Source: Escherichia coli (GTDB lineage: Bacteria; Pseudomonadota; Gammaproteobacteria; Enterobacterales; Enterobacteriaceae). From it: a DNA stretch of 64,000 nucleotides. Position 1 is the first letter of the stretch, and every line of letters begins with the position of its first letter. This document shows, one piece after another, positions 42,571 through 64,000 of the stretch. Below the pieces are notes generated by a model. That model did not search any database. It was not told the DNA's origin and saw only the letters and a list, made by a program, of their open reading frames with translations. The DNA lies in NCBI RefSeq assembly GCF_050320075.1, contig NZ_CP190018.1; one strand, given 5' to 3'. The position numbers and the translations under genes were made by a program.

Positions 42571-42786
42571 AGTGTCTGCCTCCAGTGGTCAGTAATCTGG
42601 AGTGTAGGTAACCGCATTCACTCCGGCGGGAAGAATTTACAAACTGTGATCTCGCCGCGAAAACATCAATATTATCCATTTTGCTGTAACATAATTGCTT
42701 TAATTGTTAATAATATTTTGCAATCAAGTTATCATAATCAAACAACTTCACTTGTCAGCGACACCGCTTCGTTTTTAACATCGCTT

Positions 42787-43710: not shown

Positions 43711-43748
43711 AAGGTGAAGGGATCTGTCGATCCCTTCCTTGAACATTT

Positions 43749-46286: not shown

Positions 46287-47134
46287 AAGTACTCAACGAG
46301 CTAAGGCAGTTTTATCCTCTTGATGAGCTTCTCAGGGCTGCGGAGATACCGCGCAGTACGTTTTATTACCATCTAAAGGCTCTCAGCAAGCCTGACAAGT
46401 ATGCGGACGTTAAAAAGCGTATTGGTGAGATTTATCACGAGAATAGAGGCCGATACGGATACCGTAGGGTAACGCTGTCTCTTCATCGAGAAGGGAAACA
46501 GATTAACCATAAAGCTGTTCAGCGCCTGATGGGAACCCTCTCACTTAAAGCAGCGATTAAGGTCAAGCGATACCGCTCTTACAGAGGAGAGGTAGGGCAA
46601 ACCGCCCCTAATGTTCTCCAAAGAGATTTCAAGGCTACGCGGCCAAACGAGAAGTGGGTTACCGATGTTACTGAATTTGTAGTCAATGGGCGCAAGCTGT
46701 ATTTGTCTCCAGTAATAGATCTCTTCAACAACGAAGTTATTTCTTACAGCCTTTCGGAAAGACCAGTGATGAACATGGTTGAGAATATGCTCGATCAGGC
46801 ATTCAAAAAGCTTAATCCTCACGAGCATCCTGTTCTGCACTCTGACCAGGGATGGCAGTATCGTATGAGAAGATATCAAAATATCCTTAAAGAACATGGT
46901 ATTAAACAAAGCATGTCCAGAAAAGGCAATTGTCTGGATAATGCTGTGGTGGAGTGTTTCTTTGGAACCTTAAAGTCGGAGTGTTTTTATCTTGATGAGT
47001 TCAGTAATATAAGCGAACTGAAGGATGCTGTTACGGAATATATTGAATACTACAACAGCAGAAGAATTAGCCTGAAATTAAAAGGTCTGACTCCAATTGA
47101 ATATCGGAATCAGACCTATATGCCTCGTGTTTAA
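46283..47134 (+). CDS. insK: IS150 OrfB (InsK), DDE transposase catalytic domain, expressed as an OrfAB fusion by frameshift
   Basis: Frame open from about 46268; DDE integrase-like sequence. Confidence 0.75.
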
Positions 47135-47175
47135 CTGTCCAACTTTTTGGGGTCAGTACAAACCGAGGCCAACGA

Positions 47176-47383
<208 letters not shown>

Positions 47384-47454
47384 GGGCAAGCGCGGGGATT
47401 TTCCCCGCGCATCTGACTAGCAGATTCATTTTCTCATGGCACCCCTTTTACACT

Positions 47455-47628
47455 TCAGTTAGTGCATGTTTTTTTCGATGCACTAATAGAACCATCATTA
47501 CAGACAAATTTGCCGCCTGCCGTACAGTGTGAGATCCCCCCTTTCGAACCAGAACAGGGTTTGCGCCCGGCATCGGCATAAAAGGAAACAAGCGTTCCCA
47601 TAAACAAGATAAGTGCCAGTTTTTTCAT
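47455..47628 (-). CDS. ydcA: small secreted cysteine-rich protein YdcA (57 aa)
   Basis: MKKLALILFMGTLVSFYADAGRKPCSGSKGG; GGAGG Shine-Dalgarno; not in the ORF track (too short). Confidence 0.65.
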   Translation of the reverse strand: MKKLALILFMGTLVSFYADAGRKPCSGSKGGISHCTAGGKFVCNDGSISASKKTCTN

Positions 47629-47798
47629 ATAACCTCCATGGTTTATCGAATCTTATGTTCGATTTGAACGTTATACGCTGGTTTATTTTGATACCGTTGA
47701 TGAGATCAAAGATCGGGCGAATTGATTAAAGATAAGCCAGATGGACGTATGGATAAGGATTATGGTTTTATTTGTCATACAAATAAATATAATAGGCG

Positions 47799-47862
47799 CT
47801 TCCGATGTAGACCCGTATTCTTCGCCTGTACCACGGGTCGGTTTTAGTACAGGCGTTTTCTT
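47799..47862 (+). ncRNA. rydC: RydC small RNA (Hfq-dependent, pseudoknot), approximate ends
   Basis: cybB-ydcA intergenic location; CTTCCGATGTAGACCCGTATTC...; hairpin CCTGTAC/GTACAGG with T-run; TATAAT-like -10 box upstream. Confidence 0.55.
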
Positions 47863-47872
47863 TAAATATCCT

Positions 47873-48403
47873 TCAGGAACGTTTACGCGGCATCATGCGT
47901 AGAAGTGTGTTGTCCTTCCAGAAATAGTGGTGTGCCAGTGCAGCCGCAGCGTGCAACCCGATGACAAAATATCCCAGATTCGCCAGCATTTCATGCCACG
48001 ACTTTAAGCTATCAACCCGTTCGAAATTGGCCTCTGATGCATAAGGCATCGTCAAACCAAACGCAAACCACGGGTTGCCTCGGTTATACATCATCACCAA
48101 ACCAATCACTGGCAGCGCAATAAACAGGAGATAAATCACCAAATGTCCCAAATGCGCCAGTCCCGTCATCATCGGTTTTGGCTTAGGTATAATCGGCGGG
48201 GTTGGGTATTTCAGCCTTAACAAAAGACGAACGACCATCAGCACGAGAATTGATATGCCACAGGAAACATGAATCATGTTGATGAGTGGCCGATCGCTAC
48301 GTGGGAAGAACCCCCGAAACTCCATTGCGCAATACGCTGCAATAACCAGCAAAAAGACCAGCCAGTGAATGCTGATTTGTAACCTTGAGTATTTATTTTC
48401 CAT
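47873..48403 (-). CDS. cybB: cytochrome b561
   Basis: 176 aa from MENKYSRLQISIHW; four-helix membrane protein with conserved His residues. Confidence 0.85.
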   Translation of the reverse strand: MENKYSRLQISIHWLVFLLVIAAYCAMEFRGFFPRSDRPLINMIHVSCGISILVLMVVRLLLRLKYPTPPIIPKPKPMMTGLAHLGHLVIYLLFIALPVIGLVMMYNRGNPWFAFGLTMPYASEANFERVDSLKSWHEMLANLGYFVIGLHAAAALAHHYFWKDNTLLRMMPRKRS

Positions 48404-48591
48404 AACATTTCCTGCTTTAACATAATTTTCCGTTAACATAACGGGCTTTTCTTAAAATTTCATTAAATATTGTTCACCCGTTTTCAGTACGTTACGTTTC
48501 ACGGCAAGAATGTAGATTGCCCATCCCGCCATCCTGGTCTAAGCCTGGAAAGGATCAATTTTCATCCGAACGTTCCTGACAGGAGAAGACC

Positions 48592-49593
48592 ATGAGTAAA
48601 GTTGGTATTAACGGTTTTGGTCGTATCGGTCGACTGGTGTTGCGTCGATTACTTGAAGTCAAAAGCAACATAGACATTGTCGCTATTAATGATCTCACTT
48701 CCCCAAAAATTCTCGCCTACCTGCTGAAACATGATTCAAACTATGGACCGTTCCCCTGGAGCGTTGATTTTACGGAAGATTCACTTATCGTTGATGGGAA
48801 AAGTATCGCGGTTTACGCCGAAAAAGAGGCTAAAAATATTCCGTGGAAAGCGAAAGGGGCAGAAATTATTGTCGAATGTACTGGCTTTTATACCTCCGCC
48901 GAGAAATCGCAGGCGCATCTTGATGCTGGTGCGAAGAAGGTGTTGATTTCCGCCCCTGCCGGTGAAATGAAAACTATCGTTTATAACGTCAATGACGACA
49001 CTCTGGATGGCAACGACACCATTGTTTCCGTGGCGTCATGCACCACTAACTGCCTTGCGCCGATGGCCAAAGCCTTGCACGACAGTTTCGGAATAGAAGT
49101 CGGCACGATGACGACCATTCATGCCTATACCGGCACTCAGTCACTGGTGGATGGCCCGCGTGGTAAAGATTTACGTGCTTCACGCGCAGCGGCAGAAAAT
49201 ATCATTCCCCACACTACGGGGGCGGCAAAAGCCATTGGTCTGGTGATCCCAGAACTGAGCGGCAAACTGAAAGGTCATGCGCAACGCGTGCCGGTGAAAA
49301 CAGGTTCCGTCACTGAACTGGTATCGATTCTCGGAAAAAAAGTGACTGCCGAAGAGGTGAATAACGCACTTAAACAAGCAACCACCAATAACGAGTCATT
49401 TGGTTATACCGATGAAGAAATAGTCTCTTCCGATATCATTGGCAGCCATTTCGGTTCGGTGTTTGATGCCACGCAAACCGAAATTACCGCCGTGGGCGAT
49501 TTACAACTGGTGAAAACGGTCGCCTGGTACGATAACGAATATGGCTTCGTCACGCAGCTTATTCGCACCCTCGAAAAATTCGCTAAACTCTGA
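48592..49593 (+). CDS. gapC: glyceraldehyde-3-phosphate dehydrogenase C, intact 333-aa reading frame
   Basis: NAD motif NGFGRIGR; catalytic SCTTNC. Confidence 0.85.
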
Positions 49594-49634
49594 CGCGCAC
49601 AGGCGGAGGAAAAAACCTCCGCCTCTTTCACTCA

Positions 49635-51074
49635 TTAAGACTGTAAATAAACCACCTGGGTCTGCAGATATTCATGCAGGCCATGTTTACCATCTGCGCC
49701 GCCAATACCGGATTTACGCCATCCGGCGTGGAAGCCTTGCATAGCTTCGAAGTTTTCACGGTTGATGTAAGTTTCACCAAACTTCAGCCCTTTAATGGCT
49801 TTCATCGCGACGTTCAGATTTTGGGTATAGATTGATGAGGTCAGGCCGTAATCACTGTCATTCGCCATTGCGATAGCATCTTCCAGCGTGTCAAATGCGA
49901 CCACTGGCAGAACCGGGCCAAAGGTTTCCTCATGCATAATCGACATTTCCTGGCGAACATCCAGCAGCAATGTCGGCGGATAATAATATCCTTTCCCCTC
50001 TACCGCTTTGCCACCCAACGCCACTCTCGCCCCTTCTTCTACTGCGCGCGCCACTTTTTGCTCGACCCTTTCCAGCGCCGCGGCGTTAATCAACGGCCCC
50101 ATCGCAATGTCGTTGCGTTCTGCGGGGTTACCAAATTGAACCGCCTGCAACGCTTCACCCAGCCGATTGACGAACTGATCATAAATGCCTTTCTGTACAT
50201 AAACACGTTCTGCACAGTTACACACTTGCCCACTATTAATGACGCGTGAATCAACGATGGCTTTGACTGCCAGTTCAAGATCGGCATCGTCCATTACGAT
50301 AGCTGGTGCTTTACCCCCCAATTCCAGGCACACTTTGGTGATGTTTTTCGCCGCAGTCGCCATGATCTTTTCACCTGCAGAGACGCTGCCTGTCATACTG
50401 ACCATTGCGACCTTTGGGTTACCCGCCAGTTCTTGCCCAACGGTTTCACCACGCCCCAGAACAAGGTTAAACACGCCGCGCGGAAGGCCTATTTCATCGA
50501 CGATTTTGGCGAATGCAATCGCATTGTTTGGCGTAAATTCACTGGGTTTAATGACAATGGTATTACCAGTCAAAAGAGCGGGAGCCATTTTGCGGGCAAT
50601 GAGGAAGAACGGGAAGTTCCACGGCAGAATGCCGGTAGTCACACCAAGCGCACGTTTAAACAGAAGAATATTTTCTCCTGGACGATCGCTTTGAATAATC
50701 TCGCCCTCGTAACGCCGTGCCCACTCCGCCATGTAATCGATATAGTCCGCAGTAAAAGCCACTTCGACTTCAGCCAGCTGCTGGATCTTGCCCCCTTCTT
50801 CAACAATCAGCGCACTGATTTCACTGGCGCGTTCGCGGATCCCGACGGAGATTTTGCGCAACCAACTGGCGCGTTCAATAGCAGGCAACGCTTCCCATTC
50901 TGGTTGTGCACGTTCTGCTGCATCGATTGCCTTACGGGCATCCTCGGCCTGACCATCGGGAATGCGGGAAATGACAGCCTCTGTAGCAGGGTTTACCACA
51001 TCAATCCATGCGTCTCCACGCCAGGTAACAAACTGTCCATCAATATACATAGGATGTTGAACGGGTACTGACAT
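49635..51074 (-). CDS. aldA: lactaldehyde dehydrogenase
   Basis: 479 aa; ALDH motifs ELGGKAP and QVCNCAERV. Confidence 0.9.
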   Translation of the reverse strand: MSVPVQHPMYIDGQFVTWRGDAWIDVVNPATEAVISRIPDGQAEDARKAIDAAERAQPEWEALPAIERASWLRKISVGIRERASEISALIVEEGGKIQQLAEVEVAFTADYIDYMAEWARRYEGEIIQSDRPGENILLFKRALGVTTGILPWNFPFFLIARKMAPALLTGNTIVIKPSEFTPNNAIAFAKIVDEIGLPRGVFNLVLGRGETVGQELAGNPKVAMVSMTGSVSAGEKIMATAAKNITKVCLELGGKAPAIVMDDADLELAVKAIVDSRVINSGQVCNCAERVYVQKGIYDQFVNRLGEALQAVQFGNPAERNDIAMGPLINAAALERVEQKVARAVEEGARVALGGKAVEGKGYYYPPTLLLDVRQEMSIMHEETFGPVLPVVAFDTLEDAIAMANDSDYGLTSSIYTQNLNVAMKAIKGLKFGETYINRENFEAMQGFHAGWRKSGIGGADGKHGLHEYLQTQVVYLQS

Positions 51075-51270
51075 GAGCGGCTCCTGTGATTTATATGTTT
51101 GTTTTTGGTAAATACATTGTTAATTAACATCAATCATCAGAGAGACGGCATCATGAAAGGACAATTCTGTGAAGGGCTTCATAAAAACAAGTGTAAAAGG
51201 AATAAGAGGCAGAAATAAAAGGCAGGAGTTATGCCCGTTTGCAAACAAGTGGTTCACAAACGGGCAATTT

Positions 51271-52071
51271 TTAACGTAACGAGCGACTTTCCATCGCCTC
51301 GATGAGCACCGCATCGTGTTTCAGCGTTTGCCATGCATGGATGACTTCTGCCGGAAAATCAACGTGAACGATAAAATCTCGCCCGCGGGGACCGTAGCCA
51401 TCGCTATCATCGCGTAAACGCGGCAGCTCGCCAGTGAGTAGTGAGAGATAACGCTCAACCGGCCATAATCCTTGCAACGGATTAACAAAGATTACACTGT
51501 CTGCGTTGTTTCCTAGCTGAGGAACGAATCCGGGATAACTTAACCAGCGAGGTGCATCTGGATTGTCCCCGGTCATACGGCGGAACGTCGCCATCGTGCG
51601 CCGCTGCATGGTGGGGTCCTGAACAACGATAGCCGTATGAACTCGTTCTACGGCCTGATTCAATAGCGCGATGCTAAAGCGTGCGTTTTCACCGCAGTTT
51701 GTTGACTGGTCTTCAATCCAGATTTTTTCATGCGGAATATGCCAGAACTGATGAGCGATATCCGCCAGGATGGTGGCTTCTGCTCTGCCAGTGGTGCGGA
51801 TAGTGTTGTAGTGCGGATGCTGTGCGATAGCGCTATACAAAAAAGTTGTCGAGTGACCGATACCACCACTAATCAGTAGAGGAATTTGCTGATCGCGGGC
51901 AATCTTACATGCCGCATCGATAGTCGGCATAACCGCATTGCCTGCAAGGATCACGCAATCGGCCTGATACGGCATCTCACCGGAGAAATCATCCTGCGCC
52001 AGCCACTGTCCGATAACATTTATGGCATCTATAGTTGCCGTCGAAAGCGTCGGAAACGGGGTAATGTTCAT
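51271..52071 (-). CDS. ydcF: DUF218-domain protein YdcF
   Basis: 266 aa. Confidence 0.8.
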
Positions 52072-52186
52072 GGTTCCTCCTTATCGTTCCCTTAAGAATA
52101 CTGCGTGAGATAATAATGAGAAGCGGAGCACTCTGAAAGGAAGATGATGCTTTTTCTACCTCGCCATCGCGAACCAGACACTGGTT

Positions 52187-52564
52187 TTAGTCATACTGTA
52201 TTTGCGGAGAAACTGTTGATAAAACATCAATAACATCATTTGACGTGGCAATGACATAATGCTCGATCACATTATTTTTATAAATTTCACAACTTTGCAT
52301 AGTAAACCATGCAAAGTAGGCGGAATTCACTACTCTATAGATCCCCGTTTGGTTAATACCGTGAATTCCTGACATTCCTAACAAATCACCTTCGTCAGTA
52401 ACACGAAATGAATGTATCCAGTCAAATGATAACTTAACTTCTGACTTGATCGCCGGACATATGAGGGTAAGTTCAAGCCTGGCATTTTTATAGCTTAAAT
52501 CTGATAGTTCGGCATTTTTAAAAGACAATGAAGTCGGAGTGATATTTATAAAACATTCATCCAT
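52187..52564 (-). CDS. hypothetical small protein (125 aa), AT-rich islet gene C
   Basis: Uninterrupted ORF co-directional with the two genes upstream; no recognisable family. Confidence 0.5.
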   Translation of the reverse strand: MDECFINITPTSLSFKNAELSDLSYKNARLELTLICPAIKSEVKLSFDWIHSFRVTDEGDLLGMSGIHGINQTGIYRVVNSAYFAWFTMQSCEIYKNNVIEHYVIATSNDVIDVLSTVSPQIQYD

Positions 52565-52683
52565 GTTAATACCCCTTCATATATGAGACTGCTCTCGATA
52601 GACGACACATTAACCTTCTGCAAAAACGGTGCGAGTCTGTTTACGTACCATGTATAATCGATGGACATTACTGTGATTTGAAA

Positions 52684-53142
52684 TTACCTTGTCCAGTCAT
52701 CAACCATTTTTTTCAGGGGGAACATCTGCAATACATTCATTAATGCGAAATATAATTCCCCCTGTGGCACCCATATTCTAATCTTCTCATCCCCTAAAAT
52801 GAAAAATTGCAATTGACGTTTGAAACCTAATGTTTTATCTTCAGGTAATTCAGCTTGTATTTTTTTATTGATATCATCAAGGTAGATGTGATGACAATAC
52901 TCATCAAACATACTCATTACTTCCAGACCGTTTACAGATGTCCATCTTTGTTCACTTTCCCAATAAACAAGAACCGGTTTGCGGCAGGTATATCTGCCTA
53001 AAAAGCGCTGAATGTGTTCTTCCTGATTCTCGTAAAATATTGCCTCTGCATTCGAGATTTGCCGACGCATTCGCCAGCGGATTTTTTCTTCATAAAAAGA
53101 CAATTTGTCGCATTTGGTATTACTCAAATTCATTGTCAACAA
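52684..53142 (-). CDS. hypothetical small protein (about 150 aa), AT-rich islet gene B; start uncertain
   Basis: Uninterrupted ORF; overlaps the end of islet gene A. Confidence 0.5.
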   Translation of the reverse strand: MLTMNLSNTKCDKLSFYEEKIRWRMRRQISNAEAIFYENQEEHIQRFLGRYTCRKPVLVYWESEQRWTSVNGLEVMSMFDEYCHHIYLDDINKKIQAELPEDKTLGFKRQLQFFILGDEKIRIWVPQGELYFALMNVLQMFPLKKMVDDWTR

Positions 53143-53512
53143 CTCGCATGGTTTTAAATATAAAATTTAAAAAACCGCCAAACAAATGAAGTGAAATTTC
53201 ATACTTCTTTGCCTTATAAACAATTACCGCATCTTTAATATTACCTGCATTTTGGTTATCTATAAGTTCAGCAATATCCATAACCTGCGATAAATGTTCC
53301 ACTCCCGTAAACTCGAACCTTTTTCGTTCCCTTCCGGCTGTAAATTCATCAACATAAAGTTCTGCCGTCAATATAAAATTATACTCGGTGTGGTGACATT
53401 CCATTCTGGTTTCTACTAAAACACCATCATGCCAGATAATATTGTCTAAATTTTTCATACTATTAATCCAATCCATTACTTTCTGATAAAATTTCCTCTG
53501 GAAGTTTTTCAT
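53120..53512 (-). CDS. hypothetical small protein (130 aa), AT-rich islet gene A
   Basis: Uninterrupted ORF; first gene of the three-gene islet. Confidence 0.5.
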   Translation of the reverse strand: MKNFQRKFYQKVMDWINSMKNLDNIIWHDGVLVETRMECHHTEYNFILTAELYVDEFTAGRERKRFEFTGVEHLSQVMDIAELIDNQNAGNIKDAVIVYKAKKYEISLHLFGGFLNFIFKTMRVVDNEFE

Positions 53513-53685
53513 AGAAAGAGATTAAAGCCTGACCGACGCAATCAAGCTCTATTATTCGCTCATAATACGATCTCATTAAAATATCATGCTTACTCATTGC
53601 AATACGTCCTGTTTACCATGGGCAGAGTATGAATGTAACTTATGTAAAATAGTACCGCCCTTGCTATTTTTCAGAATTCATAAAG

Positions 53686-54755
53686 GCTGAATTTACAATC
53701 CAAGTGCAACAAAAAAAGAAGTACTCATCAACTAGAATATAATTTTGTTTCCACACAAAAACCATTTCCAAATGATGAGTACTTCCTACCGACATCTTAC
53801 AATAAACGAGCGAGAAAAGATAATGATTTTACTCGCACAGGGCAAAAAACAAGCAGAAATTGCCAAAGCACTGGGACGTAGCTCCAGCACCATTTCTCGC
53901 GAGCTGAAACGACACGCTCTAGAAAGCTACAGTGCAACGAACGCACAAAACAGCTATTTGAAGCATCGTCAAAATAGCAAAGCACAGCGCAAATTAGAGC
54001 AGCCTGAATATTTCAATTTGGTGCAAGAAAAGTTTCTGACAGAAAACTGGTCGCCCGAACAAATCAGCGCACGATTAAAATTGGAAAAATCTGAATTATC
54101 CATTAGTTATTCAACCATTTATCGTGGTATTTATTCAGGGTTGTTTGATATAGGCGAACGCAAAGCCAGTCGCAAACTGCGCCACAAAGGCAAAACACGG
54201 CATACAAAAAATCATCATGAAAAACGTGGCAAAATTCAGATATCCAACCATTTGAACGACCGTCCCATTTCGGCGCAAAATCGCAGTCGCTTTGGACATT
54301 GGGAAGCCGATACCGTACTGGGTAAAGCGGGTGGAGCTTGTTTGCTGACGCTGACGGAACGCAAAAGTCGTTTTGAGTTGGTGAAGAAAATTCCTGCCAA
54401 AAAAGCCGAAGCAGTCCAAAAAGCCATGATTGAATTGCTGGATTCACATATATTGCGGTCAATTACGCCAGACCGTGGTAAAGAATTTGCCCAACATCGT
54501 TTGGTAACAGAAGCACTGGGTGTAGAATTTTACTTCCCCGAGCCGCATCAACCGTGGACACGGGGAACGAATGAAAATACAAATGGGTTACTTCGTGAAT
54601 ACTTTCCGAAGCACCAAGACATCAATCAGTGGAGCGAAGTTGATATTCAACAGGTGATCAATAAACTGAATTTACGACCACGTAAATGTTTAGGTTGGAA
54701 AACACCTTATGAAGTTTACTTCAAAAAATCGTTGCACTTGGTTTGACAATTCAAG
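53686..54755 (+). mobile_element. ISApl1 (IS30 family), upstream copy, transposase intact
   Basis: 1070 bp; imperfect terminal inverted repeats TGAATTTACAATCCAAGTGCAAC / TGAATTGTCAAACCAAGTGCAAC (reverse complement). Confidence 0.85.
53823..54746 (+). CDS. tnpA: ISApl1 transposase (IS30 family, DDE); 307 aa from MILLAQGKKQ, alternative upstream starts at 53772/53775 possible
   Basis: HTH region LGRSSSTISRELKR; C-terminal DDE integrase core. Confidence 0.8.
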   Translation: MILLAQGKKQAEIAKALGRSSSTISRELKRHALESYSATNAQNSYLKHRQNSKAQRKLEQPEYFNLVQEKFLTENWSPEQISARLKLEKSELSISYSTIYRGIYSGLFDIGERKASRKLRHKGKTRHTKNHHEKRGKIQISNHLNDRPISAQNRSRFGHWEADTVLGKAGGACLLTLTERKSRFELVKKIPAKKAEAVQKAMIELLDSHILRSITPDRGKEFAQHRLVTEALGVEFYFPEPHQPWTRGTNENTNGLLREYFPKHQDINQWSEVDIQQVINKLNLRPRKCLGWKTPYEVYFKKSLHLV

Positions 54756-54941
54756 ATACAAATTATAAATACTCTCAAGTGTATATTCAGTATGGGATTG
54801 CGCAATGATTGCCTAATAAAATTTCTGAAATATTTCTGTATCGCATAATTTTTTATATCAGATAAATTGTACTGGATTTCTTAAAAAATTGCAGTATAAT
54901 TGCCGCAATTATCCCACCGTTTATTTTTTGAGTAGTTTCTC

Positions 54942-56567
54942 ATGATGCAGCATACTTCTGTGTGGTACCGACGCTCGGTCAGTCCGTTTGTTCTTGTGGC
55001 GAGTGTTGCCGTTTTCTTGACCGCGACCGCCAATCTTACCTTTTTTGATAAAATCAGCCAAACCTATCCCATCGCGGACAATCTCGGCTTTGTGCTGACG
55101 ATCGCTGTCGTGCTCTTTGGCGCGATGCTACTGATCACCACGCTGTTATCATCGTATCGCTATGTGCTAAAGCCTGTGTTGATTTTGCTATTAATCATGG
55201 GCGCGGTGACCAGTTATTTTACTGACACTTATGGCACGGTCTATGATACGACCATGCTCCAAAATGCCCTACAGACCGACCAAGCCGAGACCAAGGATCT
55301 ATTAAACGCAGCGTTTATCATGCGTATCATTGGTTTGGGTGTGCTACCAAGTTTGCTTGTGGCTTTTGTTAAGGTGGATTATCCGACTTGGGGCAAGGGT
55401 TTGATGCGCCGATTGGGCTTGATCGTGGCAAGTCTTGCGCTGATTTTACTGCCTGTGGTGGCGTTCAGCAGTCATTATGCCAGTTTCTTTCGCGTGCATA
55501 AGCCGCTGCGTAGCTATGTCAATCCGATCATGCCAATCTACTCGGTGGGTAAGCTTGCCAGTATTGAGTATAAAAAAGCCAGTGCGCCAAAAGATACCAT
55601 TTATCACGCCAAAGACGCGGTACAAGCAACCAAGCCTGATATGCGTAAGCCACGCCTAGTGGTGTTCGTCGTCGGTGAGACGGCACGCGCCGATCATGTC
55701 AGCTTCAATGGCTATGAGCGCGATACTTTCCCACAGCTTGCCAAGATCGATGGCGTGACCAATTTTAGCAATGTCACATCGTGCGGCACATCGACGGCGT
55801 ATTCTGTGCCGTGTATGTTCAGCTATCTGGGCGCGGATGAGTATGATGTCGATACCGCCAAATACCAAGAAAATGTGCTGGATACGCTGGATCGCTTGGG
55901 CGTAAGTATCTTGTGGCGTGATAATAATTCGGACTCAAAAGGCGTGATGGATAAGCTGCCAAAAGCGCAATTTGCCGATTATAAATCCGCGACCAACAAC
56001 GCCATCTGCAACACCAATCCTTATAACGAATGCCGCGATGTCGGTATGCTCGTTGGCTTAGATGACTTTGTCGCTGCCAATAACGGCAAAGATATGCTGA
56101 TCATGCTGCACCAAATGGGCAATCACGGGCCTGCGTATTTTAAGCGATATGATGAAAAGTTTGCCAAATTCACGCCAGTGTGTGAAGGTAATGAGCTTGC
56201 CAAGTGCGAACATCAGTCCTTGATCAATGCTTATGACAATGCCTTGCTTGCCACCGATGATTTCATCGCTCAAAGTATCCAGTGGCTGCAGACGCACAGC
56301 AATGCCTATGATGTCTCAATGCTGTATGTCAGCGATCATGGCGAAAGTCTGGGTGAGAACGGTGTCTATCTACATGGTATGCCAAATGCCTTTGCACCAA
56401 AAGAACAGCGCAGTGTGCCTGCATTTTTCTGGACGGATAAGCAAACTGGCATCACGCCAATGGCAACCGATACCGTCCTGACCCATGACGCGATCACGCC
56501 GACATTATTAAAGCTGTTTGATGTCACCGCGGACAAAGTCAAAGACCGCACCGCATTCATCCGCTGA
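54942..56567 (+). CDS. mcr-1: phosphoethanolamine--lipid A transferase MCR-1 (mobile colistin resistance)
   Basis: 541 aa; MMQHTSVWYRRSVSPFVLVAS N-terminus, five-helix membrane domain, sulfatase-like catalytic domain with the nucleophile Thr in the CGTSTAYS motif. Confidence 0.95.
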   Translation: MMQHTSVWYRRSVSPFVLVASVAVFLTATANLTFFDKISQTYPIADNLGFVLTIAVVLFGAMLLITTLLSSYRYVLKPVLILLLIMGAVTSYFTDTYGTVYDTTMLQNALQTDQAETKDLLNAAFIMRIIGLGVLPSLLVAFVKVDYPTWGKGLMRRLGLIVASLALILLPVVAFSSHYASFFRVHKPLRSYVNPIMPIYSVGKLASIEYKKASAPKDTIYHAKDAVQATKPDMRKPRLVVFVVGETARADHVSFNGYERDTFPQLAKIDGVTNFSNVTSCGTSTAYSVPCMFSYLGADEYDVDTAKYQENVLDTLDRLGVSILWRDNNSDSKGVMDKLPKAQFADYKSATNNAICNTNPYNECRDVGMLVGLDDFVAANNGKDMLIMLHQMGNHGPAYFKRYDEKFAKFTPVCEGNELAKCEHQSLINAYDNALLATDDFIAQSIQWLQTHSNAYDVSMLYVSDHGESLGENGVYLHGMPNAFAPKEQRSVPAFFWTDKQTGITPMATDTVLTHDAITPTLLKLFDVTADKVKDRTAFIR

Positions 56568-56614
56568 TTTCTCCCTGTATTTTTTCCAAACCCACCGCAC
56601 ACTCCATTCGTATT

Positions 56615-57361
56615 ATGGGCGGTGGGGTGGGGTTTGTTATGCCGTATTTATCAAATAAACGCCTACTTGCTGAGATGAGTATCGCTCTTGTCATGGCGAT
56701 CGTTGCCACGCTGACCCTTGAGCACAGTCAGATTGATCTGATGGTCGCTGATTGGTTTTATCTGGGTATGGGGCATTGGATGGTTGCCAAGCAAGCTTTT
56801 TTGCCAGATTTGCTACTGTATTCTGGACTAAAAAAGCTGCTGATGGCGATGCTGATCTACTTGCTGGTTGCGACCATTTGCCGTGCTTATCATGAGAAAA
56901 AGGGCAATGCTATCACTGCCAAGTGGCTTGTCCCAGTGACAAAATTTCGCGTGCGTGAGCTTGCGTATCTGGTGCTGACTTTGATCCTAGTGCCGACAGT
57001 TGTCGCGTCATTGAAGGCATATACTCATGTGGTCTGCCCTGTGCATTTGACGATTTTTGATGGTACGCTGCCGTATTTGCCGATGCTTGATAGTATGCGT
57101 AACACCATTCCTGATAAGTGCTTTCCTGCGGCGCATGCCAGTAGCGGATTTGCGCTGTTTGCCTTTGCGTTTGCGCCAAGTTTGCGCCGCCGTCGTGGTG
57201 CGATCATCATCGTGGTGATGGCATTGGGCTGGGCGATGGGCTGCTATAAGATGATTATTGGCGATCATTTTTTGAGCCATACGGTGGTGTCGATGATGCT
57301 TGCGTGGGCGATGTCGGCAGGGCTTGCGTGGGTGTTTTTTAAGAAGGGTGAACAAGTTTAA
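56615..57361 (+). CDS. pap2: PAP2-family membrane phosphatase (start may be 56639)
   Basis: 248-aa hydrophobic protein directly downstream of mcr-1, as in the mcr-1 cassette. Confidence 0.8.
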   Translation: MGGGVGFVMPYLSNKRLLAEMSIALVMAIVATLTLEHSQIDLMVADWFYLGMGHWMVAKQAFLPDLLLYSGLKKLLMAMLIYLLVATICRAYHEKKGNAITAKWLVPVTKFRVRELAYLVLTLILVPTVVASLKAYTHVVCPVHLTIFDGTLPYLPMLDSMRNTIPDKCFPAAHASSGFALFAFAFAPSLRRRRGAIIIVVMALGWAMGCYKMIIGDHFLSHTVVSMMLAWAMSAGLAWVFFKKGEQV

Positions 57362-57364
57362 TCG

Positions 57365-58434
57365 GCTGAATTTACAATCCAAGTGCAACAAAAAAAGAAG
57401 TACTCATCAACTAGAATATAATTTTGTTTCCACACAAAAACCACTTCCAAATGATGAGTACTTCCTACCGACATCTTACAATAAACGAGCGAGAAAAGAT
57501 AATGATTTTACTCGCACAGGGCAAAAAATAAGCAGAAATTGCCAAAGCACTGGGACGTAGCTCCAGCACCATTTCTCGCGAGCTGAAACGACACGCTCTA
57601 GAAAGCTACAGTGCAACGAACGCACAAAACAGCTATTTGAAGCATCGTCAAAATAGCAAAGCACAGCGCAAATTAGAGCAGCCTGAATATTTCAATTTGG
57701 TGCAAGAAAAGTTTCTGACAGAAAACTGGTCGCCCGAACAAATCAGCGCACGATTAAAATTGGAAAAATCTGAATTATCCATTAGTTATTCAACCATTTA
57801 TCGTGGTATTTATTCAGGGTTGTTTGATATAGGCGAACGCAAAGCCAGTCGCAAACTGCGCCACAAAGGCAAAACACGGCATACAAAAAATCATCATGAA
57901 AAACGTGGCAAAATTCAGATATCCAACCATTTGAACGACCGTCCCATTTCGGCGCAAAATCGCAGTCGCTTTGGACATTGGGAAGCCGATACCGTACTGG
58001 GTAAAGCGGGTGGAGCTTGTTTGCTGACGCTGACGGAACGCAAAAGTCGTTTTGAGTTGGTGAAGAAAATTCCTGCCAAAAAAGCCGAAGCAGTCCAAAA
58101 AGCCATGATTGAATTGCTGGATTCACATATATTGCGGTCAATTACGCCAGACCGTGGTAAAGAATTTGCCCAACATCGTTTGGTAACAGAAGCACTGGGT
58201 GTAGAATTTTACTTCCCCGAGCCGCATCAACCGTGGACACGGGGAACGAATGAAAATACAAATGGGTTACTTCGTGAATACTTTCCGAAGCACCAAGACA
58301 TCAATCAGTGGAGCGAAGTTGATATTCAACAGGTGATCAATAAACTGAATTTACGACCACGTAAATGTTTAGGTTGGAAAACACCTTATGAAGTTTACTT
58401 CAAAAAATCGTTGCACTTGGTTTGACAATTCAAG
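57365..58434 (+). mobile_element. ISApl1, downstream copy, transposase inactivated
   Basis: Co-linear with the upstream copy at a fixed offset of 3679 bp; at least two substitutions seen, including the nonsense change. Confidence 0.85.
57502..58425 (+). pseudogene. tnpA: ISApl1 transposase pseudogene, codon 10 CAA->TAA (57529..57531)
   Basis: GGCAAAAAATAAGCAGAAATT here versus GGCAAAAAACAAGCAGAAATT in the upstream copy; remainder of the frame matches copy 1. Confidence 0.8.
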
Positions 58435-58436
58435 AG

Positions 58437-58470
58437 AAAAAACCCGGCGCTAAATGCTTACCGGGTTTTA
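58437..58470 (-). terminator. rho-independent terminator of hrpA
   Basis: Hairpin CCCGG...CCGGG with flanking A and T tracts just downstream of the hrpA stop. Confidence 0.55.
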
Positions 58471-58493
58471 GATTTATCAGGCAAATAGCAGTG

Positions 58494-61400
58494 TTAACCG
58501 CTAATCTGCTCCATCGCCTGCAAAATACGCTTATCTGAAATCGGATAAGGCGTACCAAGTTGTTGAGCGAAGTAACTAACGCGCAACTCTTCTATCATCC
58601 AACGGATCTCTTTCACGTCTTCATCCTCACGACGTGCGGGCGGCAGTTTGTTGATCCATTGCTGCCACGCCTGCTGGACATTTTCGACTTTCAGCATCTG
58701 AGCACGGTCGCGATGTGGGTCAACCGCCAGTTTTTCCAGCCGTTTTTCAATCGCCTGCAAATAACGCAGCGTGTCGCCCAACCGTTTGAAGCCGTTACTA
58801 GTGACAAAACCGCGATATACCAACCCGCCCATCTGCGCTTTAATGTCAGAAAGCCCCAGCGCCATGGTCATATCCACCCGCCCTTTCAGACGTTTATTGA
58901 TATTGAACACCGCAGTAAGGATTTGCTCGACCTGCTTCGCAATATCCACCACCGTGTCGTTCAGTTCAGCGCGGACTTTTTCATGCAGCGCAGCAAAACC
59001 TTCTTCCGTCCAGACCGGGCCACCATTGGCGTCGATCAGTTGATCCACACCGCAGGAGATACAGTCGTCGATCAGCTCCAGCACTTTGCCATACGGGTTA
59101 AAGTACAGCCCCAGCTTGGCTTTGTTTGGCAACTTCTCATGCAAATATTTGATTGGCGAGGGAATATTCAGCAGCAGTAGACGGCGAAGACCGTTCCACA
59201 TTGCCTGCTTTTGTTCCAGCGGATTATCAAACAGTTTGATCGCCACGCTGTCGCGTTCATCCACTAGCGCTGGCCACGCCTTCACTTTATAGTTGCCACG
59301 CTTCTGTTCGTAGCTTTCCGGCAGCTGACCAAAACTCCAGATATGTAAGCCGCTCTGCTCGATACCGTCATCCGCCACCGCAGACAGCGTTTCCTGCACT
59401 TTGCCTTTCAGCGCATCTTTCAGATCTTGTAGAGAGCGCCCTTCTTTTAGCTTCTTGTTTTTGTCATCCACCACACGGAAGGTGATTTTCAGGTGATCGG
59501 GCACCTGATCCCAGTGCCAGTCTTCGCGGTCAACGGTGACGCCAGTCATCCGCCGTAGCTCTCGTTCAAGGCTGTCGAGCAACGGCAATTCCAGCGGTGT
59601 GACGCGGCCTAAAAAAGCTTCGGCGTAGTTTGGCGCGGGCACAAAATTACGCCGTACCGGTTTCGGCAACGATTTAATCAGAGCAATCACCAGTTCGCGG
59701 CGCAGACCGGGGATCTGCCACTCAAATCCGCTCTCCTCCACCTGGTTAAGTAACGGCAGCGGGATATGTACCGTCACGCCGTCCGCATCCGCCCCTGGCT
59801 CAAACTGATAACTCAAACGCAGCTTGAGATTGCCCTGATGCCAGAAGTTCGGGTAATCCAGCTTGCTGATCTTTTCCGCCCCTTCTTTGATCAACATGCT
59901 CTTTTCAAAGTTGAGCAAATCAGGCGTTTCGCGGCTGACTTTTTTCCACCAGCTGTCGAAGTGACGTGCGGAGATCACATCGTGGCTGATGCGCTGGTCG
60001 TAAAACTCAAACAGCGTTTCGTCATCCACCAGAATATCGCGGCGACGTGTTTTGTGTTCCAGTTCTTCCACTTCGGCCCGTAGTTTCAGGTTTTCACGGA
60101 AGAATGCGTGACGCGTCTGCCAGTCACCTTCCACCAGCGCGTGGCGAATAAAGAGTTCACGACATAACGCCGGATCGATCTGGCTGTAGTTGACCTTGCG
60201 CGCGGCAACAATCGGCAAGCCATAAACAGTGACTTTTTCCGTTGCCATCACCGCGCCCTGCGCCCGTTCCCAGTGCGGTTCGCTGTAGGTGCGTTTAATC
60301 AAATGCTGAGCAACTGGCTCCACCCATTCTGGATCGATGCGTGCCGCAATGCGCCCCCACAGGCGGCTGGTTTCTACCAGTTCCGCCACCATTACCCATT
60401 TCGGCGGCTTTTTAAATAAGCCGGAACCGGGGAAAATGGAGAAACGCGCGTTACGTGCGCCGGTATATTCTTGTTTATCGGCATCTTTCATGCCGATATG
60501 GGAAAGCAAACCGGTCAGTAAGGCGATGTGAATTTCGCGATACTCCGCCGGTTCGCTGTTAACCGGAATGCCAAGTTCTTTTACCACCTGGCGCAACTGG
60601 GTGTAGATATCCTGCCATTCGCGCACGCGCAGATAGTTGAGATAATCGGTACGACACAGGCGACGGAAAGCGTTGGAAGAAAGCGCCTTTTGCTGCTCGC
60701 CAAGATAATTCCACAGATTTACAAACGCGAGGAAGTCGGATTCTTTGTCGTGGAAGCGACGATGTTTTTCGTCCGATGCCTGCTGTTTGTCCATCGGTCG
60801 TTCGCGCGGATCCTGGATGGAGAGCGCGGACGTGATAATCATCGCCTCACGCACGCAGCCATGTTTTTGCGCTTCCAGCACCATACGCGCCAGACGAGGA
60901 TCGACAGGCAATTGCGAAAGCTGGCGACCGAGCGGCGTCAGTTTATAGGCGCTGGCCTGTTCATCAGTGGTGATCGCGCCCAGCTCTTCGAGCAGACGCA
61001 CGCCATCCTGGATATTACGTTTATCCGGTGCTTCGACAAATGGGAACGCGGCGATATCGCCCAACCCCAGCGCGGTCATCTGTAAAATAACCGAGGCCAG
61101 GTTGGTACGCAGAATCTCCGGATCGGTAAACTCCGGGCGCGAGAGGAAATCGTCTTCGGAATAGAGACGAATACAGATCCCTTCGGACACACGACCACAG
61201 CGGCCTTTACGCTGGTTGGCAGACGCCTGCGAAATGGGCTCAATCGGCAAACGCTGCACTTTGGTGCGATAGCTGTAGCGGCTGATACGCGCCGTACCTG
61301 GGTCGATAACGTATTTAATCCCCGGTACGGTCAGCGACGTTTCCGCGACGTTGGTCGCCAGCACAATGCGCCGTCCACTGTGCGACTGGAACACGCGGTT

Positions 61401-62396
61401 CTGTTCGCTGTTCGAAAGCCGCGCATAAAGCGGCAAGATTTCGGTATGGCGTAAGTTCAGCTTGTTCAGCGCATCGGCGGTATCGCGAATTTCCCGCTCA
61501 CCGCTCATAAAGATCAGAATGTCGCCGGGACTTTCCTGGCTCAGTTCGTCTACGGCGTCAAAAATCGCCTGCAACTGATCGCGCTCGGTGTCATCGGCTT
61601 CTTCAACAATCGGGCGATAGCGCACTTCCACCGGATAGGTCCGACCGGAGACTTCGATAATCGGCGCATTATTAAAGTGGCGCGAAAAGCGTTCCGGGTC
61701 GATAGTCGCGGAAGTGATAATGATTTTTAGGTCAGGACGCCGCGGTAGCAACTCTTTCAAATAGCCGAGCAGAAAATCGATATTCAGGCTGCGTTCGTGC
61801 GCTTCGTCAATAATGATAGTGTCGTACTGCATCAGCAGGCGGTCTTGCTGGATCTCCGCCAGCAGGATACCGTCGGTCATCAGCTTGACCATCGTGTTAT
61901 CACTTACGTGATCGCTGAAACGCACTTTGTAACCGATGCAACCGCCCGGCTCCGTTTTCAGCTCTTCCGCAATACGGTTCGCCACCGTTCGTGCCGCCAG
62001 GCGACGCGGCTGGGTATGGCCGATCAGCCCTTTAATCCCGCGCCCCAGTTCCATACAGATTTTCGGTAGCTGAGTCGTCTTACCGGAACCGGTTTCCCCG
62101 GCGACGATCACCACCTGGTGATCACGAATCGCTTCGAGAATGTCCTTCTTTTTCTGACTAACTGGCAAATTGTCGGGATAAGTGATTTCCGGTCGTGCCG
62201 CTTCACGCAGCAGGACTTTCCCTGCCGCCTGGTCAATCTCTTTCGCCATCTCCTGGAAAATGGCCTGTTGTGCATCAGGATTTTTAACCTTCTTCACACC
62301 GTGCAGACGGCGTAAAAAACGCTGTCTGTCGCGCAGCATCAGCGAATCCAGCCGCTGCTGCAAGGCAGTAAAGGTCAATTTTTGTTGTTCTGTCAT
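58494..62396 (-). CDS. hrpA: ATP-dependent RNA helicase HrpA (DEAH-box)
   Basis: 1300 aa; Walker A GETGSGKTTQ, DEAH motif (IIIDEAHERS), helicase C-terminal and HA2 regions. Confidence 0.9.
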   Translation of the reverse strand: MTEQQKLTFTALQQRLDSLMLRDRQRFLRRLHGVKKVKNPDAQQAIFQEMAKEIDQAAGKVLLREAARPEITYPDNLPVSQKKKDILEAIRDHQVVIVAGETGSGKTTQLPKICMELGRGIKGLIGHTQPRRLAARTVANRIAEELKTEPGGCIGYKVRFSDHVSDNTMVKLMTDGILLAEIQQDRLLMQYDTIIIDEAHERSLNIDFLLGYLKELLPRRPDLKIIITSATIDPERFSRHFNNAPIIEVSGRTYPVEVRYRPIVEEADDTERDQLQAIFDAVDELSQESPGDILIFMSGEREIRDTADALNKLNLRHTEILPLYARLSNSEQNRVFQSHSGRRIVLATNVAETSLTVPGIKYVIDPGTARISRYSYRTKVQRLPIEPISQASANQRKGRCGRVSEGICIRLYSEDDFLSRPEFTDPEILRTNLASVILQMTALGLGDIAAFPFVEAPDKRNIQDGVRLLEELGAITTDEQASAYKLTPLGRQLSQLPVDPRLARMVLEAQKHGCVREAMIITSALSIQDPRERPMDKQQASDEKHRRFHDKESDFLAFVNLWNYLGEQQKALSSNAFRRLCRTDYLNYLRVREWQDIYTQLRQVVKELGIPVNSEPAEYREIHIALLTGLLSHIGMKDADKQEYTGARNARFSIFPGSGLFKKPPKWVMVAELVETSRLWGRIAARIDPEWVEPVAQHLIKRTYSEPHWERAQGAVMATEKVTVYGLPIVAARKVNYSQIDPALCRELFIRHALVEGDWQTRHAFFRENLKLRAEVEELEHKTRRRDILVDDETLFEFYDQRISHDVISARHFDSWWKKVSRETPDLLNFEKSMLIKEGAEKISKLDYPNFWHQGNLKLRLSYQFEPGADADGVTVHIPLPLLNQVEESGFEWQIPGLRRELVIALIKSLPKPVRRNFVPAPNYAEAFLGRVTPLELPLLDSLERELRRMTGVTVDREDWHWDQVPDHLKITFRVVDDKNKKLKEGRSLQDLKDALKGKVQETLSAVADDGIEQSGLHIWSFGQLPESYEQKRGNYKVKAWPALVDERDSVAIKLFDNPLEQKQAMWNGLRRLLLLNIPSPIKYLHEKLPNKAKLGLYFNPYGKVLELIDDCISCGVDQLIDANGGPVWTEEGFAALHEKVRAELNDTVVDIAKQVEQILTAVFNINKRLKGRVDMTMALGLSDIKAQMGGLVYRGFVTSNGFKRLGDTLRYLQAIEKRLEKLAVDPHRDRAQMLKVENVQQAWQQWINKLPPARREDEDVKEIRWMIEELRVSYFAQQLGTPYPISDKRILQAMEQISG

Positions 62397-62587
62397 AACG
62401 TTAGTGGGCAGTAGTCTGCCTGATTAATTTTCTTTTAAATGATAGATATAGAGTACCACATCGCGGCTTTCTATGCGTTGTTCAATAAATTCGAACATAG
62501 GCTTCGATTTATTGCGCTATCTCTGTGGCAGGATTGTGAATAAAGTGTCAGCAAGCAACGGGGCATCGCCCATTCAAACATCTATAA

Positions 62588-63202
<615 letters not shown>

Positions 63203-63315
63203 CCGGACACGATCTTGATGTGGACTGTAGATATTCAGTCCACATCTCAATCCGCTTACCTGTTTTCTATCGCTTTGTGCTCTTCCTTAAGCACAATCTG
63301 CGAGCGCCTGACTCG

Positions 63316-64000
63316 TTATTCTCGCGAAATACCATCCAACGTAGACAACACTTCCTCAGAAAGATGCAATTTTTCAGCAGCCATATTCTCCCGTAAATGC
63401 GCAACAGAAGATGTCCCTGGGATCAGCAAAATATTCGGTGAACGTTGTAACAGCCACGCCAGCGCCACCTGCATTGGTGTTGCGCCCAGGCTCGCTGCTA
63501 CATCCGAAAGTGTGGAGGATTGCAGCGGCGTAAAGCCCCCAAGCGGGAAGAACGGCACGTAAGCAATGCCAACGCGGGCCAAATCATCAATCATTGCGTC
63601 ATCAGCACGATGAGCAATGTTGTATTCGTTCTGCACACAGACGATTTCGGTAATCTTACGCGCCTCTGCGACCTGCGTCGGTGTGACGTTGCTCAGGCCA
63701 ATATGTTTTACCAGGCCTTGTTGTTGCATCTCTGCCAGCACGGTCAGGCTGGCTTCAATCGATCCTTCCGCCGGGCCATGACCATCCCCCATCATGACGC
63801 GCAGGTTAACCACATCCAGTACGTCCAGGCCGAGATTACGTAGATTATCGTGTACCGCTTTTTGCAGCTCTGCCGGAGAAAATGCGGGCAACCAGGAAGC
63901 ATCCTCACCACGTCGTGCACCAATTTTAGTGACAATTGTCAGGTCGTCAGAGTAAGGATGTAGCGCTTCGCGGATAATCTGATTGGTGACGTGCGGACCA
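63316..64000 (-). CDS. ydbC: aldo-keto reductase; N-terminal end lies beyond the window edge
   Basis: Frame open to base 64000; AKR-like sequence; adjacent to azoR. Confidence 0.7.
   Translation of the reverse strand, partial: GPHVTNQIIREALHPYSDDLTIVTKIGARRGEDASWLPAFSPAELQKAVHDNLRNLGLDVLDVVNLRVMMGDGHGPAEGSIEASLTVLAEMQQQGLVKHIGLSNVTPTQVAEARKITEIVCVQNEYNIAHRADDAMIDDLARVGIAYVPFFPLGGFTPLQSSTLSDVAASLGATPMQVALAWLLQRSPNILLIPGTSSVAHLRENMAAEKLHLSEEVLSTLDGISRE

What the first reader, a model, noticed from the sequence alone, without database searches (positions are those of the whole stretch)
63203..63315. azoR directly abuts ydbC, and no IS lies between ydcL and ydcO
Only ~113 bp separate azoR and ydbC, whereas I recall K-12 carrying ydbD and ynbABCD between them; likewise the ydcL-ydcO gap (34698..34731) has no IS609-type element. 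Together with the insertions elsewhere, this shows the window comes from a lineage distinct from K-12 with its own set of accessory gains and losses.
Basis: established knowledge. Interest (0 to 1): 0.25.

Follow-up and report, generated by a model that had tools for sequence, protein, structure and literature searches.

The report
Lineage-specific deletion and empty IS site
In this E. coli stretch a 7-kb block of five dispensable genes that K-12 carries between azoR and pdxI (ydbC) has been deleted, and the spot where K-12 carries an IS609 copy is empty; this is ordinary strain-to-strain variation that marks a phylogroup D (ST38-like) lineage.

Summary
azoR (62597..63202, +) and pdxI/ydbC (63316..window end, -) are 113 bp apart. 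ydcO and ydcL are 34 bp apart with no IS between them. K-12 MG1655 has ydbD-ynbABCD in the first gap and IS609 in the second.

The 113-bp spacer shows that the first difference is a deletion in the window's lineage. It consists of the 53-bp azoR/ynbD intergenic region followed by the last 60 nt of ynbD. This remnant is fused 3 bp past the pdxI stop codon at a 3-bp TCG microhomology. About 7,045 bp of K-12 sequence is missing.

Among 5,426 complete E. coli genomes, 145 share this exact junction. Another 643 have a different azoR-pdxI junction (NC101/B2 type) with no ynbD remnant. The rest keep azoR and pdxI apart.

The ydcO/ydcL site equals K-12 minus its annotated IS609, base for base. 2,128 genomes share the empty site and 3,256 share the K-12 junction.

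The closest genomes are 100% identical apart from one transposon. One of them, ECSC054, is phylogroup D, ST38.

The finding is ordinary and already present in public annotated genomes. The most notable thing in the window lies elsewhere: a chromosomal ISApl1-mcr-1-pap2-ISApl1 transposon at 53686..58434.

The parts
62597..63202 (+). azoR (FMN-dependent NADH-azoreductase), intact, 201 aa
   Evidence: ORF. RefSeq annotation of the 100%-identical CFSAN061763 locus. The NCBIfam match NF010075 (111 bits) is below its 188-bit cut-off.
63203..63255 (.). Retained azoR/ynbD convergent intergenic region (53 bp). It contains an 11-bp-stem hairpin (63217-63227 paired with 63236-63246).
   Evidence: Aligns base for base with K-12 1482202..1482254 and with AHB6. 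The fold has z = -4.75 on the + strand and -5.79 on the - strand. No U-tract follows the stem, and the consensus scan did not call it a terminator.
63256..63315 (-). Remnant of the 3' end of ynbD. It holds the stop codon (TTA on the + strand, 63256..63258) plus 57 nt of coding sequence, and has a 12-bp gap relative to K-12 and AHB6.
   Evidence: Alignments. The remnant shares AHB6-specific variants (ctcttccttaagca). In ynbD-bearing genomes the match to the window runs through azoR and into ynbD, reaching window 63315 in 16 of the listed rows and stopping at 63267 in 8 others.
63313..63315 (.). Deletion junction. TCG is present at both K-12 breakpoints (3-bp microhomology). K-12 1475085..1482129 is missing (about 7,045 bp: the pdxI terminator, ydbD, ynbA, ynbB, ynbC and most of ynbD).
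   Evidence: The two blastn blocks overlap by 3 bp. Alignments.
63316..64000 (-). pdxI (ydbC), 3' 685 nt of an 861-nt gene. It is cut by the window end. The stop codon sits directly at the junction.
   Evidence: (NF007695, 434 bits).
34695..34697 (+). ydcO stop codon TAA. The unoccupied IS609 insertion point lies inside it, between 34696 and 34697.
   Evidence: the window sequence equals K-12 with 1503161..1504908 removed. In K-12 the IS adds one codon (Tyr) and supplies a TGA stop to ydcO.
34698..34731 (.). ydcO/ydcL convergent spacer (34 bp) with the hairpin GCGCCATC-TAAC-GATGGCGC. No IS is present.
34732..35400 (-). ydcL (DUF3313 lipoprotein), intact
   Evidence: Annotation of matching genomes.

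Best explanation
Two unrelated lineage markers are involved. (1) An ancestor of the window's lineage had the K-12-type order pdxI-ydbD-ynbA-ynbB-ynbC-ynbD><azoR. It lost about 7.0 kb in a single deletion between two TCG trinucleotides. One lies 3 bp past the pdxI stop codon and the other lies 72 nt (in K-12 numbering) before the ynbD stop codon. The event removed the pdxI intrinsic terminator, ydbD, ynbABC and all but the last 60 nt of ynbD. pdxI and azoR now converge on the old azoR/ynbD hairpin. Both flanking genes stay intact. The lost genes are dispensable: ynbB is a non-essential backup for CdsA in MPIase glycolipid synthesis. (2) The ydcO/ydcL site is the unoccupied target of IS609. IS609 is an IS200/IS605-family element that inserts 3' of a TTAT without a target duplication. 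In K-12 and about 60% of complete genomes it sits inside the ydcO stop codon. The window has the empty form, most simply the ancestral one. Shown here: the junction anatomy, the remnant, and the population counts. Inferred: the order of events, the microhomology-mediated mechanism, the lack of phenotype, and that the IS609 site was never occupied.
For: The K-12 gene order is. The whole-window blastn gives breakpoints with a 3-bp overlap. Base-level alignments show the 53-bp intergenic region plus the 60-nt ynbD tail fused to the pdxI stop codon. In the listed ynbD-bearing genomes the homology runs from azoR into ynbD and never past window 63315; it reaches 63315 in 16 rows and ends at 63267 in 8. 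145 of 5,426 genomes share the exact junction. A second junction type is found in 643 genomes, and 145 + 643 = 788, which is the total number with azoR-pdxI adjacency. E. albertii has the K-12-type hairpin and a ynbD-like tail after azoR. Many Citrobacter species, Klebsiella spallanzanii, Phytobacter ursingii and Superficieibacter have azoR followed by ynbDCBA, so the block next to azoR predates E. coli. The empty IS609 site equals K-12 minus the annotated IS exactly. 2,128 genomes have the uninterrupted site and 3,256 have the K-12 ydcL-IS609 junction. ynbB is non-essential (PMC6362211).
Against: No near relative (>=99% identity) that still carries ynb was found, so the pre-deletion state is inferred from a 97%-identical genome (AHB6). 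A 3-bp microhomology is short and could be coincidental. IS200/IS605 elements excise precisely, so sequence alone cannot tell a never-occupied IS609 site from a cleanly excised one. Phylogroup and ST are inferred from the nearest genomes, because no typing locus lies in the window.
Confidence: 0.93

Rival explanations
1. The window shows the ancestral arrangement, and K-12 and its allies gained ydbD-ynbABCD by inserting an island between azoR and pdxI.
For: Direct azoR-terminator-pdxI adjacency does exist in other Enterobacteriaceae (Kluyvera intermedia, Enterobacter sp. kpr-6) and in NC101-type E. coli. ydbD was not found next to azoR outside Escherichia in the 80 loci examined.
Against: The window's spacer holds the ynbD stop codon and its last 57 coding nt plus the azoR/ynbD intergenic region. 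An ancestral empty site would not contain these. The window junction differs from the NC101 and outgroup type, which has a clean stem-loop with a T-run and a different pdxI 3' end.
Confidence: 0.03
2. The adjacency is an assembly artefact, such as a collapsed or misjoined contig.
For: None specific. The source of the window is unknown.
Against: The identical junction is present in 145 independently assembled complete genomes. The 24-kb region is 100% identical to many of them outside the transposon.
Confidence: 0.01
3. The window lineage acquired its azoR-pdxI adjacency by homologous recombination with a B2 (NC101-type) donor that lacks the ynb block.
For: NC101-type genomes are common (643) and recombination in E. 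coli is frequent.
Against: The two junctions differ. The NC101 spacer is 40 bp with no ynbD remnant, and its pdxI 3' 120 nt are only 62-77% identical to the window, whereas K-12 and AHB6 are 97-98% identical there.
Confidence: 0.01
4. The ydcO/ydcL site once held IS609 in this lineage and lost it by precise excision.
For: IS200/IS605-family elements excise precisely as single-stranded circles (established knowledge). The window's site is a seamless match to K-12 minus the IS.
Against: Parsimony. Named strains with the empty site span phylogroups E (O157:H7) and B2 (ST131) as well as this D lineage. Named strains with the IS are of the K-12, ATCC 8739 and O104:H4 type. That pattern fits one old insertion in the A/B1 branch.
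Confidence: 0.05

Closest known systems
K-12 MG1655 pdxI-ydbD-ynbABCD-azoR region (b1406-b1412)
   Same: The flanking genes, their orientation, the azoR/ynbD intergenic hairpin and the last 60 nt of ynbD are the same.
   Different: 7,045 bp are missing from the window: the pdxI terminator, ydbD, ynbA, ynbB, ynbC and most of ynbD. There is also a 12-bp gap inside the remnant.
NC101 / B2-type azoR-pdxI junction (643 complete genomes)
   Same: azoR and pdxI are convergent neighbours with no ynb genes between them.
   Different: The NC101 spacer is 40 bp and consists of one GC-rich stem-loop with a T-run (CCTCCCAC-GAAA-GTGGGAGG-TTTTTTT). It has no ynbD remnant. Its pdxI is 867 nt with a divergent 3' end. 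It resembles the arrangement in some other Enterobacteriaceae, so it has a separate and probably much older origin.
IS609 of K-12 (IS200/IS605 family; yncK pseudogene plus insQ/tnpB)
   Same: The window carries the exact target: TTAT on the K-12 + strand, inside the ydcO stop codon.
   Different: The element is absent at this site. The window instead has a different IS200-type element (Y1 transposase) between pqqU and mcbR.
E. coli ST38 / phylogroup D genomes (e.g. ECSC054, YZLc1-3, CFSAN061763)
   Same: They are 100% identical over window 40000..64000 apart from one insertion. This includes the deletion junction, the IS150 at hokB/sokB and the 1.5-kb island between ydcF and hrpA.
   Different: None of the 5,426 complete genomes has the 4,749-bp mcr-1 transposon at this locus. 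The best coverage of the 24-kb query is 80%.

Membership tests
Deletion allele derived from the K-12-type pdxI-ydbD-ynbABCD-azoR arrangement | Both flanks are collinear with the ynb-bearing arrangement right up to the breakpoints. | tested here: met
   The blastn blocks end at K-12 1482130 and 1475084. Alignments.
Deletion allele derived from the K-12-type pdxI-ydbD-ynbABCD-azoR arrangement | A residual fragment of a deleted gene lies at the junction. | tested here: met
   60 nt of the ynbD 3' end, including its stop codon, lie at 63256..63315. They share allele-specific variants with AHB6.
Deletion allele derived from the K-12-type pdxI-ydbD-ynbABCD-azoR arrangement | The ynb block next to azoR is present in outgroups, which gives the polarity of the change. 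| tested here: met
   The E. albertii sequence after azoR is K-12-type. azoR-ynbDCBA is present in 8 Citrobacter loci, K. spallanzanii, Phytobacter ursingii, Superficieibacter sp. and Enterobacteriaceae bacterium LSJC7; Phytobacter massiliensis has ynbCBA without ynbD. E. fergusonii and E. marmotae were not among the 80 loci returned.
Deletion allele derived from the K-12-type pdxI-ydbD-ynbABCD-azoR arrangement | The junction is reproducible in independent genomes, so it is not an artefact. | tested here: met
   145 complete genomes cover at least 80% of the 331-bp junction query in one piece.
Unoccupied IS609 (IS200/IS605 family) target site | The sequence equals the occupied locus with the IS removed, with no target duplication or scar. 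| tested here: met
   the K-12 flanks ...TTTTTAT | TATCGG... are contiguous in the window at 34696|34697.
Unoccupied IS609 (IS200/IS605 family) target site | A short specific tetranucleotide lies 5' of the insertion point (TTAT here). | tested here: met
   Read directly from the K-12 and window sequences. That this is the preferred IS609 target rests on general knowledge of the family and was not tested.
Unoccupied IS609 (IS200/IS605 family) target site | The site was never occupied, as opposed to precisely excised. | not testable with these tools
   This needs ancestral-state reconstruction on a genome phylogeny. Only counts (2,128 empty, 3,256 occupied) and named example strains are available.
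E. coli phylogroup D / ST38 | MLST alleles (adk, fumC, gyrB, icd, mdh, purA, recA) and Clermont markers. | not testable with these tools
   None of these loci lies in the window. The assignment rests on 100% identity over about 19.25 kb to ECSC054, which is reported as phylogroup D, ST38, O4:H30 (PMC8209727).
Tn6330 (ISApl1-mcr-1-pap2-ISApl1), noticed outside the finding | Two direct ISApl1 copies flank mcr-1 and pap2, with a 2-bp target duplication. | tested here: met
   The two 1,070-bp copies are at 53686..54755 and 57365..58434 and differ at 2 positions. The MCR-1 model NF000465 scores 1302.7, above its 1100 cut-off, and PAP2_near_MCR1 scores 547. The AG duplication is seen against the empty site in YZLc1-3. 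The unit is 100% identical over 4,749 bp to annotated plasmid units.

The most novel reading that the evidence does not exclude
The ydbD-ynbABCD block is missing in 14.5% of complete E. coli genomes, in two unrelated configurations: a recent deletion in an ST38-like D lineage, and an old terminator-only junction common in B2 that resembles the arrangement in some Kluyvera and Enterobacter. The most novel reading the evidence allows is that presence or absence of this putative membrane-lipid/MPIase-backup operon is a long-standing polymorphism, possibly shared across species and under selection. In that case the natural null lineages, which include successful extraintestinal clones, would be a ready-made test of what YnbABCD and YdbD do.
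Probability: 0.12. Interest if true: 0.3.

Novelty: already known. Interest (0 to 1): 0.1.

Why it matters
The finding has little significance by itself. Gene-block loss and IS presence or absence are the expected kind of difference between E. coli phylogroups, and these exact sequences are already in public annotated genomes.

It has three practical uses:
- The junction TCG at 63313..63315, with its ynbD remnant, is a clean clade marker for the ST38-like lineage.
- Natural ynbABCD/ydbD nulls agree with laboratory data that ynbB is dispensable.

Tried and rejected
- I considered that K-12 had gained the block. The ynbD remnant and the outgroup synteny rule this out for the window.
- I considered import of the B2 allele. 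The junction and the pdxI 3' end differ.
- I looked for a canonical intrinsic terminator in the spacer. The consensus scan found none at 63203..63315. Folding gives two stable hairpins without U-tracts, so I do not call the hairpin a proven terminator.
- I searched the literature for descriptions of ynbABCD presence/absence variation. Only incidental mentions turned up.
- I searched for a report of chromosomal Tn6330 in ST38 at this site. The search returned 8 papers, judged from titles and abstracts only, and none appeared specific to this site.

Full report
**Observation.** The ORF list and sequence show four genes at the two sites:
- azoR at 62597..63202 (+).
- An aldo-keto reductase reading frame on the minus strand. 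Its stop codon is at 63316..63318 and it stays open to the window end.
- ydcO, ending at 34697 (+).
- ydcL at 34732..35400 (-).

The minus-strand frame matches NCBIfam NF007695 at 434 bits, above its cut-off. The azoR ORF matches azoreductase model NF010075 at 111 bits, below that model's 188-bit cut-off, so its name rests mainly on RefSeq. RefSeq names the same genes azoR and pdxI in a 100%-identical genome. K-12 has pdxI, ydbD, ynbA, ynbB, ynbC, ynbD and then azoR. It also has IS609 (1503161..1504908, yncK pseudogene plus insQ) between ydcL and ydcO.

**Whole-window comparison.** blastn of the window against K-12 1,468,000-1,560,000 gives nine collinear blocks in reverse orientation. The aligned core blocks are 94.7-98.3% identical, and the Rhs/H-repeat fragments are lower (about 81-91%). 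The breaks between blocks are:
- Window 831..12042, which holds different Rhs-region content.
- About 17968..18671, an extra 0.7 kb.
- 34696|34697, where IS609 is absent.
- 45718..47160, an extra 1,443 bp.
- 52145..58436, an extra 6.3 kb between ydcF and hrpA.
- 63313..63315, where K-12 1475085..1482129 is absent.

**What the 113-bp spacer is.** Base-level alignments show three things:
- 63203..63255 is the 53-bp azoR/ynbD convergent intergenic region. It includes an 11-bp-stem hairpin at 63217..63246.
- 63256..63315 is the ynbD stop codon plus its last 57 coding nucleotides. This stretch has a 12-bp gap relative to K-12 and AHB6.
- The remnant carries variants shared with the closest ynb-bearing genome found (AHB6, L086) and not with K-12.

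At 63313..63315 the sequence TCG is common to both K-12 breakpoints. Immediately after it comes the pdxI stop codon. In ynbD-bearing genomes the match to the window runs through azoR and into ynbD. In 16 of the listed rows it stops at window 63315, and in 8 others it ends earlier, at 63267.

The window therefore descends from a ynb-bearing arrangement by a single deletion. The deletion is 7,045 bp in K-12 coordinates and 7,044 bp in AHB6, with 3-bp microhomology at the junction. It also removed the pdxI stem-loop and T-run that lie in the K-12 pdxI-ydbD spacer. That motif is read directly from the alignment. pdxI now runs into the ynbD tail and the old hairpin. The spacer folds far better than shuffled sequence on both strands (z = -4.75 and -5.79). 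No U-tract follows either stem, and the simple terminator scan did not flag it. Its role as a terminator is therefore an inference.

**Polarity from outgroups.** One scan of species-representative genomes with AzoR, followed by tblastn with the K-12 proteins, gave these results:
- The hrpA-azoR pair is conserved across Enterobacteriaceae.
- azoR-ynbDCBA is present in eight Citrobacter loci, Klebsiella spallanzanii, Phytobacter ursingii, Superficieibacter sp. and Enterobacteriaceae bacterium LSJC7. Phytobacter massiliensis has ynbCBA without ynbD.
- The E. albertii contig ends 269 bp after azoR. Those bases align with the K-12-type hairpin and ynbD tail.

The ynb block beside azoR therefore predates E. 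coli. ydbD was not detected beside it outside Escherichia in these loci.

**Population census (5,426 complete RefSeq E. coli genomes).**

| State | Genomes |
|---|---|
| azoR and pdxI adjacent (any junction) | 788 (14.5%) |
| Window-type junction | 145 |
| NC101-type junction | 643 |
| ydcO/ydcL site uninterrupted | 2,128 |
| K-12 ydcL-IS609 junction | 3,256 |

The two junction types add up to exactly 788. The NC101 type has a 40-bp spacer made of one GC-rich stem-loop plus a T-run, no ynbD remnant, and a pdxI 3' end only 62-77% identical to the window. It resembles the azoR-terminator-pdxI arrangement of Kluyvera intermedia, Enterobacter sp. kpr-6 and a divergent strain labelled E. coli. It is therefore a separate and probably much older state. 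Whether it is ancestral or a second loss remains open.

**The IS609 site.** The window's sequence ...CCGATA|ATAAAAAGCGCC... equals K-12 with the annotated IS609 removed, with no duplication or scar. The insertion point lies inside the ydcO stop codon. In K-12 the IS adds a Tyr codon and supplies a TGA stop. Named genomes with the empty site include O157:H7 and ST131 strains. Named genomes with the IS include K-12, ATCC 8739 and O104:H4. One old insertion in the A/B1 branch is the simplest reading. IS200/IS605 elements excise precisely, so excision cannot be excluded from sequence alone.

**Lineage.** A 24-kb query (window 40000..64000) matches many genomes at 100.0% identity but never over more than 80% of its length. 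One of these, ECSC054, is reported as phylogroup D, ST38, O4:H30 (PMC8209727). No typing locus lies in the window, so the assignment is an inference.

**Function of what was lost.** ynbB is a non-essential CdsA paralogue. It acts as a backup for synthesis of the MPIase glycolipid, and its knockout grows like the parent (PMC6362211). This fits a neutral or nearly neutral loss. No paper describing natural ynb presence/absence variation was found.

**Other features seen.** These lie outside the finding and are listed under Noticed in passing. The 20% of the 24-kb query that no complete genome covers is a 4,749-bp ISApl1-mcr-1.1-pap2-ISApl1 composite transposon (Tn6330-type) at 53686..58434. It has a 2-bp AG target duplication relative to the empty site in YZLc1-3, and it is 100% identical to units annotated on many plasmids. 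Also present are an IS150 in the sokB/hokB leader, an IS200-type element, a small island of hypothetical genes, and an Rhs region that differs from K-12.

**Verdict.** The feature is ordinary lineage-specific gene-content variation that is already present in public annotated genomes. What this analysis adds is the direction of change (a loss, shown by the ynbD remnant), the exact breakpoints, the existence of two unrelated adjacency alleles, and their frequencies.

Noticed in passing
window 53686..58434: A chromosomal composite transposon, ISApl1-mcr-1.1-pap2-ISApl1 (Tn6330-type, 4,749 bp), carries colistin resistance. It has a 2-bp AG target duplication and sits between a small island and hrpA. 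It is 100% identical to plasmid-borne units. None of the 5,426 complete E. coli genomes has it at this locus. The right-hand ISApl1 copy carries a C-to-T change at 57529 that turns a Gln codon of the transposase into a stop.
   Followed up: yes
window 45718..47160: An IS150 (1,443 bp, TGTACTG...CAGTACA ends, 3-bp AAC duplication) is inserted at K-12 position 1492142-1492144. That position lies inside sokB and the hokB/mokB leader. The closest genomes share the insertion. It probably disables this type I toxin-antitoxin locus, as IS elements do at other hok loci in K-12.
   Followed up: partly
window ~17968..18671: An IS200-type element of about 0.7 kb (Y1 transposase, Pfam PF01797, E = 5e-38) lies between pqqU (yncD) and mcbR. 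It is absent from K-12 at this site.
   Followed up: partly
window 52145..53685: An island of about 1.5 kb with three ORFs that have no Pfam match (125, 152 and 130 aa) replaces about 140 bp of the K-12 ydcF-hrpA spacer. ST38-like genomes share it. AHB6 has a different insert there (an SMI1/KNR4-family gene). The ydcF-hrpA gap is therefore a variable hotspot, and it is where the mcr-1 transposon landed.
   Followed up: partly
window 831..12042: The Rhs region differs from K-12 rhsE/ydcD/yncI/ydcC. It holds an alkyl-sulfatase-like gene (658 aa), a MASE5-GGDEF diguanylate cyclase (365 aa), an intact 1,403-aa Rhs protein followed by a pentapeptide-repeat protein (a likely immunity gene), and H-repeat (DDE_Tnp_1) transposase fragments.
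   Followed up: partly
L004 4807..4846 (NC101); L006, L018, L044, L047: The NC101-type azoR-pdxI spacer is a single stem-loop with a T-run. Its stem differs between NC101 (CCTCCCAC/GTGGGAGG) and strain SCPM-O-B-8794 (CCTCCTGC/GCGGGAGG). Citrobacter amalonaticus has a similar element after azoR. This suggests an old, conserved terminator and an ancient origin for this ynb-less arrangement.
   Followed up: partly
window 63316..64000 compared with K-12, AHB6 and NC101: pdxI is unusually polymorphic and looks mosaic. Identity in 60-nt windows ranges from 88% to 98% among E. coli alleles. Only the 3' 120 nt separate K-12-type from NC101-type alleles.
   Followed up: no
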